In this document: one piece after another, positions 24,467-26,435 of the stretch | Layout of the letters: every line of letters starts with the position of its first letter | Position numbering within the stretch: position 1 is the stretch's first letter | Source of the DNA: an uncultured Acidimicrobiia bacterium | GTDB lineage: Bacteria > Actinomycetota > Acidimicrobiia > Spongiisociales > Spongiisociaceae | NCBI GenBank assembly: GCA_958295745.1 | Contig: OY282370.1 | Location: 1,031,990-1,095,989, forward strand | DNA: 64,000 nt | Direction of reading: 5' to 3' | Made by a program: the position numbers and the translations under genes | The notes under the pieces: generated by a model | The model's database searches: none | Seen by the model: only the letters and a program-made list of their open reading frames with translations | Told to the model about the DNA's origin: nothing

Positions 24467-25510
24467 TTAAAGAGGCATAGCCAGCTGTGATCCGGGTTGT
24501 AGTTCGGTGATATCGGTAGACTCTCTCTCACATAAACTAGGACGAGATGGTGGCTCGTGTTCATAGAAATATTCATCAGACCGTACCGGGGCATATAGTT
24601 CTTCATCATCCAGATCAAGGAGAGGATTCTGCCCTCTGCTTTCGTATTCTATCTGCCTGCGTAGTCTTCGCGCCTCTGCTCTCATCTTCGGGAACTCCCT
24701 AGCGGCTTTAGCATAAATATCTCTCATAATGCGGTTGCCGGCCTCGTGATCGGTGGCGAAGATCATGTAATATATTATGGAGCCTGGTTCATTTAAGACT
24801 TCAATAGAGTGTGTCCATCGATATCCGAGGTTCTTCTCAAGTCTCCATCGCATTAGGTTTAGATATTCATCTCGCGCTTGAGACGGACTAATCTCTTTTC
24901 TGAGGCGCGCATGATAGATACAAAGCCAGTCTTCCGTACCGTACATTCGATCGATCTTTATAGCATTAACATCGCTAACTCTTGAACCATCATCAACTGG
25001 TAACGTTCTGATAAACATCGGTGCAGCAAATAATAAGAATAATTCGGCCTTCCATTTTCGTCCCTTTTTAAACTGTGCTAAAGCCTTAAGAGTCCGCCAT
25101 TCTGCTTGCATACCGCTGGGATCAACAAAGGCAAAGGTCGGAGCCCGGTTCCACTCCCTTAATATATTTAGCTCCGACGGAATTCGTTCATTACAGTCCC
25201 CACCGATTACCTTCAAATCTCTACCAGGATACTTTGCTAGAAGGGCCTTCTTAAGTCTTGGAGCTTTGTCCTCTTTTTCAAAGAATCTGAGCCGAGTAAA
25301 GGGGGGATCATCAATTGACAGAGCGATAGCCGCTGATCCCTTTAGTGACTCGCCTGTCAGTCTATCTATATTCTCTGGCTCACCTGCAAAAGCATCAATA
25401 TATATCCTCTCGAATGCCTTGTTCTTAGTCGCAGTTGTAAACGCGTCTAGGTAACGCTGCAGGATATCCAGTTTTCCTCTTGTCCAGTAACCCCAAGCAC
25501 GACCCGGCAT
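24467..25510 (-). CDS. tcmP: three-Cys-motif partner protein TcmP-like, with amino-methyltransferase-like DPPF motif
   Basis: ORF 24467..25642. Start placed at ATG 25510, 8 nt after the stop of the upstream DUF5131 gene. Markedly lower GC than the flanks. Contains ERIYIDAFAGEPEN and AIALSIDDPPF, which resembles motif IV of beta-class N6A/N4C DNA methyltransferases. The family name is recalled from memory and needs a profile search. Confidence 0.55.
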   Translation of the reverse strand: MPGRAWGYWTRGKLDILQRYLDAFTTATKNKAFERIYIDAFAGEPENIDRLTGESLKGSAAIALSIDDPPFTRLRFFEKEDKAPRLKKALLAKYPGRDLKVIGGDCNERIPSELNILREWNRAPTFAFVDPSGMQAEWRTLKALAQFKKGRKWKAELFLLFAAPMFIRTLPVDDGSRVSDVNAIKIDRMYGTEDWLCIYHARLRKEISPSQARDEYLNLMRWRLEKNLGYRWTHSIEVLNEPGSIIYYMIFATDHEAGNRIMRDIYAKAAREFPKMRAEARRLRRQIEYESRGQNPLLDLDDEELYAPVRSDEYFYEHEPPSRPSLCERESTDITELQPGSQLAMPL

Positions 25511-25518
25511 AACTATCT

Positions 25519-26268
25519 CTAAACCCCCTCCCTGAGTGCCGGCATCTCGTCGTGGAAGGCGCCGTCGAGTTCTCTTCCGCCAGCTTTGGGGGTGCGGCCG
25601 CCCCACTGCTTGAAGAAGAAGGCCACGCCCTCCGCCCGGCATCGGTCCCGGAGGCCGCGGACCCAGGCTTCGTTCATCGGTCTGGCGTTGTGGCCGCTCT
25701 CACCGCCTGCGATCAGCCATTGGATCGACGAGAGGTCCAAGCTCGGAAGCGGACCGAGCAGGGGTTCGGCGCTGACGAACCGCACCGCCGCTTTGACCTC
25801 GCGCAGGTGATCCACCCTGAAGGTGTAGCGGTCGTTCTCTACGCTCACGCCCATCCAGACGTTGGGAGGCCAGTCCAGGCAGGGCGCAAGCGAGGCGAGC
25901 CGCTTGGAGCGCTTGGTGAGTATCTGGTAGGTATGCCGGGGCGTATCGGCCATGACATCGAAGACACGCCGGATGAAGTCCAACGGCACCCCCGGATGGA
26001 ACAGATCGCTCATCGAGTCCACGAACACGAGCCGCCGCGACCTCCAACCGTAGGGCGCGGCCAACGTCTCCTCGTGCAGGGTCAGAGCGAAGCCCGGTCC
26101 GCTGGTCCTGGGATCCCCGTCGTTCTGGTACTTGGCCAGCCCCATCGCCTTGAGGCGCTTGGCGAGCGTGAGCGCGTAACAGTTGTCGCACCCGGCCGAG
26201 ACCCGATCACAGCCCGTGGTGGGATTCCACGTAGCGTCGGTCCACTCGATCCTCGACCCGTTGCTCAT
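25519..26268 (-). CDS. phage Gp37/Gp68-family (DUF5131) three-Cys-motif protein
   Basis: ORF 25519..26298, likely start [32 protein letters not shown] (Cx6CxxC) at 26268. Tightly coupled to the downstream tcmP-like gene. Confidence 0.6.
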   Translation of the reverse strand: [249 protein letters not shown]

Positions 26269-26435
26269 GGCCTCCTTCCCTTCGCCGCCAAGCCACATTC
26301 AATATAAAGGCCGGGTATGACATTTCAAGAACCGATCCTGTCTGCGGCGTCCTTCGAGGACGGCCCCCTCTACCTTCCAAGATTTTCGGGCCGGGAGGAG
26401 TGGGAAAAAAATCTCGCCGGGGCGGTACGACCCCC

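What the first reader, a model, noticed from the sequence alone, without database searches (positions are those of the whole stretch)
24467..26298. Compositionally foreign two-gene module: DUF5131 (Gp37/Gp68) three-Cys protein coupled to a TcmP-like protein with a DPPF methyltransferase-like motif
The upstream gene encodes [26 protein letters not shown], the N-terminal Cx6CxxC of the phage Gp37/Gp68 family. This could be a non-canonical Fe-S/radical-SAM-like site. Eight nt downstream starts a 347-aa partner whose DNA is much AT-richer than the genome. It contains AIALSIDDPPF, close to motif IV (DPPY/DPPF) of amino-methyltransferases, and IDAFAGEP. Such pairs are catalogued only as a 'three-Cys-motif partner' association with no assigned function. 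The pair sits at the edge of a mobile-element island, next to the HNH/REP13E12-like repeats. These sequence features are what I would expect of a nucleic-acid modification or phage-defence/anti-defence module.
Basis: partly seen in the sequence, partly recalled or inferred. Interest (0 to 1): 0.65.

Follow-up and report, generated by a model that had tools for sequence, protein, structure and literature searches.

The report
Radical-SAM-like enzyme plus methyltransferase-fold partner
Two adjacent genes encode a probable iron-sulfur radical enzyme and a methyltransferase-shaped partner, a pair already catalogued as an untested candidate anti-phage system; this copy is an ordinary member, except that the partner gene alone is AT-rich and has a much deeper divergence than its neighbour.

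Summary
Window 25519-26268(-) encodes a DUF5131/Gp37-Gp68 protein with an invariant Cx6Cx2C. Eight nt downstream, 24467-25510(-) encodes a TcmP (TIGR04474) protein. The pair is already catalogued as PADLOC candidate PDC-M41, found by guilt-by-embedding in RM/BREX loci and never tested.

TcmP does have a class I methyltransferase fold, closest to the rRNA m6A methyltransferase RlmJ. The four RlmJ side chains that hold SAM (S100, E118, D143, D164) align with invariant or nearly invariant TcmP residues S59, E78, D105 and D130. The true motif IV position is VDPSG (130-133).

Only TcmP is compositionally foreign (GC 0.45). DUF5131 has host-like composition and diverges like the flanking genes (dS 0.56), whereas TcmP has dS 1.77 under purifying selection. 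A third syntenic relative keeps DUF5131 but lacks TcmP.

Relatives of the pair sit behind type I RM operons, on integrative/conjugative-type elements, and beside the repressor of temperate Gordonia phages.

Most likely this is a SAM-dependent two-enzyme nucleic-acid modification cassette used in host-mobile-element conflict. The chemistry and the target are unknown.

The parts
26301..26328 (-). Promoter-like site (TTGAAA-16-TATATT, 10/12) about 30 nt upstream of the DUF5131 start; possible operon promoter
   Evidence: consensus scan only: 4 sites found against 1.5 expected, so weak evidence
25519..26268 (-). DUF5131 / phage Gp37-Gp68 family gene (249 aa from the ATG at 26268; the mechanical ORF extends to 26298). 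PADLOC PDC-M41B. Radical-SAM-like (beta/alpha)6 core.
   Evidence: PF07505 E 4e-98; PDC-M41B E 1e-107; start inferred from the homologue alignment; AF2 core residues 60-220 at high pLDDT, with a beta/alpha repeat; Foldseek best hits MiaB and spore photoproduct lyase, weak
26179..26211 (-). Cys triad C20-x6-C27-x2-C30 (numbered from M at 26268); presumed [4Fe-4S] ligands
   Evidence: Read from the sequence; invariant in 27 and in 53 homologues down to 49% identity, together with C210
24467..25510 (-). TcmP (three-Cys-motif partner) gene, 347 aa, AT-rich; class I methyltransferase fold with an RlmJ-like core; PADLOC PDC-M41A
   Evidence: TIGR04474 E 8e-55; PDC-M41A E 9e-30; AF2 pLDDT 89; Foldseek RlmJ 6qe5 and DUF519 2oo3 at the top; hhalign to E. 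coli RlmJ
25382..25396 (-). TcmP motif I core D39-A-F-A-G43, at the end of strand 1. It is followed by a 14-residue hairpin insertion and then G58-S59.
   Evidence: a weak profile match to the RsmD-type methylase HI0767 aligns G58-S59 with its G-loop; S59 aligns with RlmJ S100
25298..25312 (-). It is a loop before strand 2 and not a catalytic motif.
   Evidence: DSSP of the model; column counts: D67 is a gap in 39/48, D68 variable, P69 42/48, F71 42/48
25112..25123 (-). True motif IV position, D130-P-S-G133, after strand 4; it aligns with RlmJ D164-P-P-Y
   Evidence: hhalign; D130 48/48, position 131 P34/Q14, no conserved aromatic at the fourth position
26398..26840 (+). Context, not part of the module: internally deleted copy of the HNH-ORF repeat element whose full copy lies at 29985-~31700

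Best explanation
Proposed function: a two-enzyme, SAM-dependent cassette that modifies nucleic-acid bases. It belongs to the DUF5131 + TcmP pair that PADLOC lists as candidate defence system PDC-M41.

DUF5131 (partly shown, partly inferred): a small radical-SAM-like (beta/alpha)6 enzyme. Its invariant Cx6Cx2C loop would hold a [4Fe-4S] cluster and use SAM to start radical chemistry.

TcmP (partly shown, partly inferred): a Rossmann-fold protein of methyltransferase type. Its core and SAM-contacting residues match RlmJ, whose active site resembles those of Dam-type DNA m6A methyltransferases.
- TcmP most likely binds SAM, recognises the target, flips out a base and performs an SN2 methyl transfer.
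- It is the fast-evolving, exchangeable specificity subunit.
- DUF5131 is the conserved subunit that performs the chemically difficult step.

Inferred from context: the target is DNA rather than RNA, and the cassette acts in conflict between host and mobile elements, as an accessory immunity or self-marking function. Relatives of the pair sit at the 3' end of type I RM operons, inside RM/BREX loci, on integrative/conjugative-type elements, and next to the immunity repressor of temperate phages.

Unknown: the modification made and whether it protects or attacks.
For: Identity of the pair. Both PDC-M41 and PDC-M30 were 'assigned as candidate' and share one DUF5131 family, FAM_00989. The candidates come from genes embedded in BREX/DISARM/type I RM loci and are untested.

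TcmP fold and SAM pocket:
- The model has pLDDT 89 and pTM 0.87.
- The Foldseek top 50 are almost all class I MTases; RlmJ and its Legionella homologue rank 1-2.
- hhalign puts S59/E78/D105/D130-P131 on RlmJ S100/E118/D143/D164-P165. These are the RlmJ side chains that bind the SAM amino-acid moiety, ribose and adenine, and D164 is catalytic (PMC3814359).
- Conservation in a 31%-mean-identity alignment: 48/48, 43E+5D, 45/48 and 48/48.

DUF5131:
- The Cys triad and C210 are invariant.
- The core shows a beta/alpha repeat.
- Radical SAM enzymes (MiaB, spore photoproduct lyase with probability up to 0.97, LIAS, EpeE) are among the best fold hits.
- There is a partial match to TIGR04471 'radical SAM mobile pair protein A', E 6.5e-17.
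- RadicalSAM.org lists it as Megacluster-5-2.

Coupling: 77 of 80 related genomic loci have DUF5131 adjacent, 76 of them co-directional and immediately upstream. Two of the three exceptions are cut by a contig end.

Context:
- HsdM lies within four ORFs in 13 of 76 loci and directly upstream in 9. HsdR/HsdS, GmrSD, integrase and TrwC relaxase also recur. At least 26 of 76 loci have such a neighbour.
- Nocardioides pNOCA01: next to an N6-MTase and McrBC.
- Gordonia phages Fairfaxidum and Bosnia: repressor, then a TcmP-like gene, convergent with DUF5131, near the integrase.
- Syntenic relative L105: a Type ISP/IIG RM enzyme lies upstream.

Specificity-subunit pattern:
- DUF5131 is more conserved than TcmP in 97.9% of 3003 locus pairs.
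- DUF5131 is 70% identical to the Gordonia phage copies, whose partners are 19-23% identical to TcmP.
- TcmP has dS 1.77 against 0.56 for DUF5131, with dN/dS 0.12, so it is functional.
Against: - No activity of any member has been measured. PDC-M41 is untested.
- TcmP matches no Pfam methyltransferase family. Its G-loop is split by an insertion, and motif IV lacks the aromatic residue.
- DUF5131 lacks the canonical CX3CX2C and does not hit PF04055. Its fold matches are weak (E >= 8e-3) and mixed with generic TIM barrels, and the Cys loop is modelled at low confidence.
- Each gene can occur without the other: DUF5131 is in 180 phage records and TcmP in 9. L105 keeps DUF5131 without TcmP. BaxterFox has TcmP with no DUF5131 adjacent.
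- The closest structural relatives of both proteins include RNA-modifying enzymes.
- In this window, and in L001, the neighbours are housekeeping genes.
- The neighbour survey has no background control.
Confidence: 0.45

Rival explanations
1. Counter-defence or self-marking. The pair modifies the DNA of the mobile element, or of the host that carries it, so that the DNA escapes restriction or is marked epigenetically. It would not attack invaders.
For: - DUF5131 is common in phages, with 180 records, often in early, replication or recombination regions close to DNA methylases: prophiT36-2a genes 14-16 and TChen gp66/gp71.
- The pair is carried on plasmids and beside relaxase and integrase genes.
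- The Deinococcus plasmid copy lies next to a 921-aa DNA methyltransferase.
- Neither gene behaves like an obligatory toxin/antidote pair, because each occurs alone.
Against: - In temperate phages the TcmP-coupled form lies in the lysogeny module beside the repressor. That is the usual place for prophage-encoded exclusion genes (my own knowledge of actinobacteriophage genomics), not for lytic-phase DNA protection.
- The pair was found embedded in host RM/BREX loci.
Confidence: 0.2
2. RNA modification. TcmP methylates an rRNA or tRNA base as RlmJ does, and DUF5131 acts on RNA as MiaB does. The role could be housekeeping fine-tuning or an infection-triggered shut-down of translation.
For: - The best structural matches of TcmP are RNA methyltransferases: RlmJ, RlmCD, TYW2, KsgA and Hen1.
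- MiaB is the top hit of DUF5131.
- Some phage annotators call DUF5131 an 'RNA methyltransferase'.
- In this lineage DUF5131 is inherited vertically, like a resident gene.
Against: - The family has a patchy, non-syntenic distribution with different neighbours in most of 76 loci. It is carried on plasmids and phages.
- TcmP is lost in a close relative.
- According to the RlmJ authors, the RlmJ active site resembles DNA m6A methyltransferases more than RNA m6,2A methyltransferases.
- Fold rank within the methyltransferase superfamily says little about the substrate.
Confidence: 0.12
3. DNA repair or damage response. DUF5131 is a photoproduct-lyase-like radical SAM repair enzyme, and TcmP is an accessory lesion-recognition or regulatory subunit.
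For: - Spore photoproduct lyase gives the highest TM-scores and probabilities among the radical SAM hits. It shares RadicalSAM.org Megacluster-5 with DUF5131.
- In M. tuberculosis the pair Rv2734/Rv2735c follows recA-recX. Rv2735c is co-transcribed with recA (PMC3062782), and all four genes form one mitomycin-C-induced cluster (PMC5057432).
- In M. abscessus prophages DUF5131 lies beside RecE/RecT and RuvC-like genes.
Against: - Assigning Rv2734 to DUF5131 and Rv2735c to TcmP rests on annotation notes and was not re-tested here.
- A repair enzyme would not be expected to need a rapidly diverging, exchangeable partner, nor to sit behind type I RM operons.
- Induction by DNA damage also fits prophage-like or defence genes.
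Confidence: 0.12
4. TcmP is a catalytically dead methyltransferase-fold scaffold or regulator. It only recruits or gates DUF5131, or vice versa.
For: - The G-x-G loop is interrupted by a 14-residue hairpin, and motif IV is D-P/Q-x-G/A without an aromatic residue.
- No Pfam methyltransferase model matches.
- In the close subfamily there is a conserved C-terminal tail, modelled at low confidence (FYEHEPP, with Y316, P321 and P324 invariant or nearly invariant). It looks like a docking peptide.
Against: - All four positions that bind SAM in RlmJ are kept across a 31%-mean-identity alignment, and K13 is invariant in the N-terminal helix where RlmJ has the catalytic K18.
- RlmJ has the same split between 'DTHAG' and 'PGSP'. 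It does not use its motif IV tyrosine for stacking.
- dN/dS of 0.12 shows strong constraint.
Confidence: 0.08

Closest known systems
DUF5131 (PF07505, COG4422, phage Gp37/Gp68) + TcmP (TIGR04474) pairs = PADLOC candidates PDC-M41 and PDC-M30
   Same: Both proteins score far above the family cut-offs and are adjacent. Gene order and spacing match 76 of 80 related loci.
   Different: Nothing essential differs. In this copy the partner is unusually AT-rich: flank minus TcmP GC is about 0.23, against a mean of 0.057 and a maximum of 0.171 in 71 relatives. No RM or defence gene lies next to it. The family has no demonstrated function.
RlmJ, 23S rRNA m6A2030 methyltransferase (PDB 6QE5; Pfam PF04378/DUF519)
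   Same: Best structural match of TcmP. Both have a split motif I: strand 1 with D-x-[FH]-A-G, then an insertion, then G-S. S, E, D and D-P are equivalent at the SAM pocket and at motif IV. Both have an N-terminal helix with an invariant Lys.
   Different: There is no Pfam PF04378 match, and TM-scores are only 0.42-0.53. RlmJ has a roughly 50-residue helical subdomain after strand 1 where TcmP has a 14-residue hairpin. TcmP instead has a helical insertion at residues 164-226 and a long C-terminal helix with a tail. Motif IV is DPSG or DPNG, not DPPY. RlmJ works alone, is a housekeeping enzyme and acts on RNA.
Spore photoproduct lyase, MiaB and other radical SAM enzymes
   Same: They share a partial (beta/alpha)6 barrel with a Cys-rich loop after strand 1. 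RadicalSAM.org places DUF5131 in the same megacluster as SPL.
   Different: The motif is Cx6Cx2C rather than CX3CX2C. There is no PF04055 hit, the fold E-values are weak, the protein is much smaller (249 aa), and no cluster or SAM cleavage has been shown.
RlmN/Cfr class A radical SAM methyltransferases (mechanistic analogy only, from my own knowledge)
   Same: They combine SN2 methyl transfer from SAM with radical chemistry to methylate an unreactive carbon of a nucleic-acid base. The pair here could split those two half-reactions between two proteins.
   Different: No homology was shown or tested. In RlmN/Cfr both steps take place in one polypeptide.
Accessory genes embedded in type I RM loci, such as PrrC (cited in Payne et al. 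2024)
   Same: The genomic logic is the same: a small cassette riding inside or at the end of an RM operon.
   Different: The proteins are unrelated. The pair is far from exclusively linked to RM: HsdM is a neighbour in 13 of 76 loci.
TIGR04471 'radical SAM mobile pair protein A'
   Same: There is partial similarity over residues 93-231, E 6.5e-17. It is also a two-gene radical SAM module on mobile elements.
   Different: The score of 61.7 bits is far below the 355-bit cut-off, so this protein is not a member.

Membership tests
PF07505 DUF5131 / phage Gp37-Gp68 | Match to the family HMM above the gathering score | tested here: met
   328.2 bits against 28.9, covering profile positions 2-243 of 243
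PF07505 DUF5131 / phage Gp37-Gp68 | N-terminal three-Cys motif C-x6-C-x2-C | tested here: met
   [14 protein letters not shown] in the sequence; the three Cys are invariant in 53 homologues
TIGR04474 TcmP (three-Cys-motif partner) | Match to the NCBIfam HMM above its cut-off | tested here: met
   186.6 bits against 53, profile positions 1-262 of 263
TIGR04474 TcmP (three-Cys-motif partner) | Encoded next to a DUF5131 gene | tested here: met
   8-nt gap on the same strand; the same arrangement occurs in 76 of 80 related loci
PADLOC PDC-M41 candidate system | Both component HMMs (M41A and M41B) hit adjacent genes | tested here: met
   M41B E 1e-107; M41A E 9e-30
PADLOC PDC-M41 candidate system | Anti-phage activity | not testable with these tools
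   The authors list it among 145 untested candidates
Class I SAM-dependent methyltransferases | Seven-stranded Rossmann-like fold | tested here: met
   The AF2 model has strands 1-5 and a 6/7 hairpin in the canonical order. Almost all of the top 50 Foldseek PDB hits are class I MTases, probability 0.97-1.00. The viral library gives the same result.
Class I SAM-dependent methyltransferases | Motif I glycine-rich loop (G-x-G-x-G or equivalent) after strand 1 | tested here: inconclusive
   D39-x-F-A-G43 is conserved but is followed by a 14-residue insertion before G58-S59. RlmJ has an analogous split.
Class I SAM-dependent methyltransferases | Acidic residue at the end of strand 2 (ribose) and Asp after strand 3 (adenine) | tested here: met
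   E78 is acidic in 48/48 and D105 is conserved in 45/48; they align with RlmJ E118 and D143
Class I SAM-dependent methyltransferases | SAM binding and methyl transfer | not testable with these tools
   No docking or assay was available
Amino-methyltransferases with motif IV (D/N/S)PP(Y/F/W) | The (D/N/S)-P-P-aromatic tetrapeptide directly after strand 4 | tested here: not met
   After strand 4 the sequence is D130-P-S-G. In the family it is D 48/48, P34/Q14, then variable, then G/A, with no conserved aromatic residue. The DDPPF at 67-71 is in the wrong structural position and is not conserved.
RlmJ family (Pfam PF04378, DUF519) | Match to the family HMM | tested here: not met
   No Pfam hit for the window protein at E<=1. 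None of the 48 diverse members hits PF04378 at E<=10.
RlmJ family (Pfam PF04378, DUF519) | Helical subdomain inserted after strand 1 | tested here: not met
   TcmP has only a short hairpin (residues 44-57) there, where RlmJ has residues ~46-95
Radical SAM superfamily | Canonical CX3CX2C motif and a PF04055 match | tested here: not met
   The motif is Cx6Cx2C; only PF07505 and PF17338 were returned at E<=1
Radical SAM superfamily | Partial (beta/alpha)6 TIM barrel with the Cys loop after strand 1 | tested here: inconclusive
   The beta/alpha repeat in the core is modelled at high confidence but the Cys loop at low confidence. MiaB, SPL, LIAS and EpeE are among the top hits, but E >= 8e-3 and they are mixed with other TIM barrels. 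RadicalSAM.org lists it as a subgroup.
Radical SAM superfamily | [4Fe-4S] cluster and reductive SAM cleavage | not testable with these tools
   Needs biochemistry
TIGR04471 radical SAM mobile pair protein A | Score above the equivalog cut-off | tested here: not met
   61.7 bits against 355

The most novel reading that the evidence does not exclude
TcmP could be the exchangeable target-specificity subunit of a new kind of nucleic-acid-modifying immunity enzyme. A conserved radical SAM engine (DUF5131) stays fixed in the chromosome. AT-rich TcmP alleles are swapped in and out at a junction only 8 nt wide, somewhat as specificity subunits are shuffled in type I RM systems. Together the two proteins would install or exploit a base modification not yet described, for example a radical C-methylation or adduct on a flipped-out base.
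Probability: 0.15. Interest if true: 0.75.

Novelty: new member of a known kind. Interest (0 to 1): 0.42.

Why it matters
The DUF5131-TcmP pair is widespread. TcmP has 2745 clusters at 50% identity with E<=1e-3, and each of the two DUF5131 searches returned 8000 hits, which is that tool's scoring cap. The pair occurs in bacteria, plasmids and temperate phages. COG4422 was reported as enriched in sponge symbionts, and the titles of the closest related records suggest, without proving it, that this window comes from such an organism. No member has a known activity.

If the pair modifies DNA or RNA through combined radical and methyl-transfer chemistry, it would add a new enzymatic logic to restriction-modification-type immunity and to radical SAM enzymology.

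What this analysis adds:
- a concrete residue map for mutagenesis: C20/C27/C30 in DUF5131; K13, S59, E78, D105 and D130 in TcmP;
- a correction of the motif assignment;
- an experimentally tractable model, namely lysogens of Gordonia terrae phages such as Fairfaxidum and Bosnia;
- the observation that the two genes have different evolutionary histories at one locus.

As a finding in this window it is an instance of an already catalogued candidate, not a discovery of a new kind.

Tried and rejected
Searches that gave nothing:
- Sequence-only searches of the PDB, with either protein or with family profiles, gave nothing significant. The only hint was a weak alignment of TcmP G58-S59...E78 to the RsmD-type methylase HI0767 (E 0.74).
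- Pfam has no model for TcmP. PHROGs has none either.
- The look-up of encoding contigs did not hold the window's own TcmP.
- The diverse alignment A2 was too variable for a locus scan, so the closer A1 was used. The 80 loci therefore sample only this TcmP subfamily, mainly Acidimicrobiia and Solirubrobacterales.
- Rfam found no RNA family in 23500-32500. There are no tRNA genes in the window.
- The literature holds no functional study of DUF5131 or TcmP.

Ideas tested and rejected:
- DDPPF as motif IV: rejected on position and conservation.
- The whole module as foreign DNA: rejected on GC3 and dS.
- AT-richness of TcmP as a sign of very recent acquisition in this genome: rejected. The syntenic relative L106 has an equally AT-rich TcmP (GC 0.42) that is only 67-70% identical.
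- TcmP as a decaying gene: rejected, since dN/dS is 0.12 and all family-invariant residues are present.
- The genes upstream of DUF5131 in phage phiE125 (gp38) and phage TChen (gp65) as hidden TcmP relatives: rejected, hhalign probability about 0.1%.

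
Full report
**1. What is in the sequence.**

Two minus-strand ORFs lie at the given coordinates.
- The upstream ORF (25519-26298) matches Pfam DUF5131 over its whole length: E 4e-98, 328 bits against a cut-off of 28.9. It carries [14 protein letters not shown], a C-x6-C-x2-C motif.
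- Homologues begin at MSNGS/MADRS and AAGGAGG precedes the ATG at 26268. The real protein is therefore probably 249 aa (inference).
- After the TAG stop and 8 nt comes a 347-aa ORF (24467-25510). [quoted passage not shown]
- The strings IDAFAGEP (residues 38-45) and AIALSIDDPPF (61-71) are present.
- The TcmP gene has GC 0.44-0.45 in a region of 0.65-0.74. Its GC3 is 0.42, against 0.85 for DUF5131.

**2. The pair is already catalogued.**

- PADLOC-DB models PDC-M41B and PDC-M41A hit the two proteins at E 1e-107 and 9e-30.
- PDC systems are 'phage defence candidates' taken from genes embedded in BREX, DISARM or type I RM loci. Their authors state that all 145 are untested (bioRxiv 10.1101/2024.01.29.577857).
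- The supplementary table lists PDC-M41 and PDC-M30 as two cassettes that share one family (FAM_00989) with different partners.
- PDC-M30A is a divergent TcmP branch. Gordonia phage Bosnia gp45 hits PDC-M30A (E 1e-20) and also the TcmP profile (hhalign probability 97%).
- RadicalSAM.org lists DUF5131 as radical SAM Megacluster-5-2 (PMC9477430).
- Full-text searches found no functional study of either family.

**3. What TcmP is.**

Fold:
- An AF2 model built from 49 homologues is confident: pLDDT 89, pTM 0.87.
- Its secondary structure follows the order of a class I methyltransferase: N-terminal helix, strands 1-5 alternating with helices, a helical insertion (164-226), a strand 6/7 hairpin, and a long C-terminal helix.
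- Foldseek against the PDB returns almost only class I methyltransferases. E. coli RlmJ (6qe5) and its Legionella homologue (2oo3) come first, at E about 2e-4 and TM 0.42-0.53.

Residue map:
- I fetched E. coli rlmJ and compared it with a diverse TcmP profile of 48 sequences, mean identity 31%.
- hhalign aligns TcmP G58-S59, E78, D105 and D130-P131 with RlmJ G99-S100, E118, D143 and D164-P165. The pairwise E-value is 8e-4 and the probability only 24%, so this is suggestive on its own.
- The RlmJ structure paper shows that S100 and D164 hold the amino-acid moiety of SAM, E118 the ribose and D143 the adenine. D164 and K18 are essential for catalysis (PMC3814359).
- In the diverse TcmP alignment these positions are S 48/48, E/D 48/48, D 45/48 and D 48/48. 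K13 in the N-terminal helix is 48/48.
- RlmJ shows the same peculiarity as TcmP: strand 1 ends in D-x-[HF]-A-G, and an insertion separates it from the G-S that contacts SAM.
- That K13 corresponds to RlmJ K18 is my inference from position. hhalign did not cover it.

I conclude that TcmP is a methyltransferase-fold protein with a probably intact SAM pocket. It is related to RlmJ but is not a member of that family. There is no PF04378 hit, RlmJ's helical subdomain is absent, and TcmP has insertions of its own.

**4. The DPPF motif.**

DDPPF (67-71) lies between helix 59-65 and strand 73-78, whereas motif IV must follow strand 4.
- In the diverse alignment D67 is a gap in 39 of 48 sequences and D68 is variable; only P69 and F71 are well kept.
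- The motif IV position is V-D130-P-S-G. In the family it reads D-(P/Q)-x-(G/A), without a conserved aromatic residue.
- This fails the (D/N/S)PP(Y/F) definition, but that weighs little against catalysis. In RlmJ the tyrosine of DPPY does not stack on the base either.

**5. What DUF5131 is.**

- C20, C27, C30 and C210 are invariant in 53 homologues down to 49% identity. Many charged residues are also invariant.
- The AF2 model is good in the core: residues 60-220, six beta/alpha units. It is poor around the Cys loop, which a model without the cluster would not be expected to fix.
- Foldseek finds no strong match (best E 8e-3). Radical SAM enzymes are nevertheless prominent among the top hits: MiaB, spore photoproduct lyase (probability up to 0.97, TM up to 0.50), lipoyl synthase and EpeE. 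Generic TIM barrels are mixed in.
- There is a partial match to TIGR04471 'radical SAM mobile pair protein A' (E 6.5e-17, far below its cut-off).
- It lacks CX3CX2C and does not hit PF04055.

So 'radical-SAM-like' is plausible and agrees with the curated classification, but my own tests leave it inconclusive.

**6. How tightly the two genes are linked.**

- A scan of species-representative genomes returned 80 loci of this TcmP subfamily. Of these, 77 have DUF5131 adjacent, and in 76 it lies immediately upstream on the same strand. Two of the three exceptions are cut by a contig end.
- Elsewhere the pair is often convergent: Nocardioides pNOCA01, a Deinococcus plasmid, Gordonia phages and a Synechococcus phage.
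- The link is not obligatory. DUF5131 occurs in 180 phage records and TcmP in 9.
- Phage BaxterFox has a 40%-identical TcmP directly after its repressor, with no DUF5131 beside it.
- The genes upstream of DUF5131 in phiE125 and TChen are not TcmP-like.

**7. Context.**

In the window:
- The pair is followed by an oligopeptide ABC transporter operon.
- It is preceded by a deleted copy of an HNH-ORF repeat element, then an LRR/SLH surface protein, the full HNH element and a 9515-aa cadherin-like/SLH protein.
- No defence gene is adjacent.

Across 76 related loci:
- The neighbours are mostly different, so the pair is not syntenic across the family.
- The recurrent neighbour families are informative: type I HsdM in 13 loci (directly upstream in 9), HsdR and HsdS, GmrSD, an N6/N4 methylase, tyrosine integrase (9 loci) and TrwC relaxase (9 loci).
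- At least 26 of 76 loci have one of these within four ORFs. This is a lower bound, and there is no background control.

Elsewhere:
- On pNOCA01 the pair adjoins an N6-methylase and McrBC.
- In temperate Gordonia phages it sits in the lysogeny module beside the repressor and near the integrase.
- In S. meliloti a TcmP gene (SMa2243) lies close to the Hna defence gene SMa2245 by locus number and is co-regulated with it (PMC12445080).
- COG4422 was reported as enriched in sponge symbiont genomes together with RM genes (PMC5649159). The closest relatives here are sponge-associated Acidimicrobiia by record title.

**8. Two histories at one locus.**

Two metagenome scaffolds, L105 and L106, are syntenic with the window: same ABC operon, 82-84% nucleotide identity.

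| Gene, window vs L106 | dS | dN/dS |
|---|---|---|
| DUF5131 | 0.56 | 0.14 |
| Flanking permease | 0.40 | 0.17 |
| Flanking SBP | 0.44 | 0.27 |
| Flanking ATPase | 0.49 | 0.24 |
| TcmP | 1.77 | 0.12 |

- TcmP is only 67-70% identical in protein. The L106 allele is equally AT-rich (GC 0.42), next to a DUF5131 of GC 0.64.
- L105 keeps DUF5131 (88-89% identical) but has no TcmP even at E 10. Three unrelated reverse-strand ORFs take its place. Upstream are a Type ISP/IIG RM enzyme and AT-rich Schlafen-like and ParA-like genes.
- Family-wide, DUF5131 is more conserved than TcmP in 97.9% of 3003 locus pairs (r = 0.79). There are extreme cases, such as 91% against 52%.
- TcmP is AT-poorer than its flanks in only 4 of 71 loci: mean deficit 0.057, maximum 0.171, against about 0.23 here.

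In this lineage, then, DUF5131 behaves as a resident gene. TcmP behaves as a constrained but much more deeply diverged cassette that can be exchanged or lost, with the breakpoint in the 8-nt gap.

The dS of 1.77 is near saturation and comes from a simple Nei-Gojobori estimate on compositionally skewed genes. The size of the contrast, not the number, is the result. Why TcmP stays AT-rich is unexplained.

**9. Most likely mechanism and its rivals.**

Shown:
- the identities of both genes;
- the methyltransferase fold;
- conservation of the SAM-pocket residues;
- the invariant Cys triad;
- tight genomic coupling;
- frequent RM, mobile-element and prophage contexts;
- asymmetric evolution of the two genes.

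Inferred:
- TcmP binds SAM and recognises or flips a base.
- DUF5131 performs radical chemistry.
- The target is DNA.
- The cassette serves in host-mobile-element conflict.

I put 0.45 on that package.

Rivals:
- Self-marking or anti-restriction, 0.2. Favoured by phage carriage and DNA methylase neighbours.
- RNA modification, 0.12. Favoured by the RNA-modifying structural neighbours.
- SPL-like DNA repair, 0.12. Favoured by the position of M. tuberculosis Rv2734/Rv2735c after recA-recX, with co-transcription and mitomycin induction. The gene-to-family assignment rests on annotation notes and was not re-tested.
- A catalytically dead TcmP scaffold, 0.08.

Each gene can exist without the other. 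This argues against a strict toxin/antidote or restriction/protection pairing.

**10. Novelty and verdict.**

This is a new member of a known, catalogued but uncharacterised kind. The supporting motif was wrong, and so was the claim that the whole module is foreign.

The interest lies in the family, which is widespread and has unknown chemistry, and in the evolutionary asymmetry documented here. It does not lie in this instance as such.

Noticed in passing
window 31918-60465 (-): A single uninterrupted ORF of 9515 aa with high GC3. Its C-terminal 1000 aa carry a cadherin-like beta-sandwich and an SLH domain, and the region contains ~366-381-nt tandem repeats. It is probably a giant cell-surface adhesin.
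   Followed up: partly
window 27058-29760 (-): A 900-aa protein with many 24-residue leucine-rich repeats (72-nt units, GC ~0.50 in a 0.68 genome) plus an SLH domain. It lies between the two copies of the HNH element. It is a eukaryote-like repeat protein of the kind common in sponge symbionts (that it is common there is my own knowledge).
   Followed up: partly
window 26398-26840 and 29985-~31700 (+): The short copy keeps the 5' 83 nt (93% identical, including a promoter-like TTGACC-18-TATACT) and ~350 nt of the 3' end (almost identical) of the element that carries the 474-aa HNH ORF. It lacks the ORF, so it is a miniature derivative of that element. DUF222 was not detected in the HNH ORF.
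   Followed up: partly
L105 5684-7913 and L106 696-2926 (syntenic relatives of the window): Upstream of DUF5131 these relatives carry two AT-rich genes (GC 0.43-0.50) that are absent from the window. One is a Schlafen AlbA_2/HATPase_c_4 protein with weak PADLOC similarity to pAgo-associated proteins; the other is a ParA/CbiA-like ATPase. L105 also has a 1450-aa Type ISP/IIG restriction-modification enzyme. In relatives this locus looks like a variable defence hotspot.
   Followed up: partly
L002 (Gordonia phage BaxterFox) 3577-5987: A TcmP homologue (gp42, 40% identical) overlaps by 4 nt the end of an unusually long (475-aa) 'immunity repressor' gp43. No DUF5131 gene lies beside it.
   Followed up: partly
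L010 (Gordonia phage Bosnia) 1306-2963: A phosphoribosyl transferase and a DprA-like gene lie between the integrase and the DUF5131/TcmP-like pair. This may be a second accessory cassette in the same lysogeny region.
   Followed up: no
M. tuberculosis Rv2734/Rv2735c (literature only): By annotation notes, the mycobacterial copy of the pair lies directly after recA-recX. Rv2735c is co-transcribed with recA, and the four genes form one mitomycin-C-induced cluster (PMC3062782, PMC5057432).
   Followed up: partly
window 16750-17500: An AT-rich patch (GC 0.50-0.54) lies in the divergent intergenic region between a glutaminyl cyclase gene (15874-16797, -) and a short-chain dehydrogenase gene (17259-18221, +).
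   Followed up: no
window 24467-25510, residues ~310-327 of TcmP: The tail F/Y-Y-E-H-E-P-P-x-x-P (Y316 and P324 invariant, P321 nearly invariant in the close subfamily) is modelled at low confidence. It may be a short docking motif for a partner protein.
   Followed up: no
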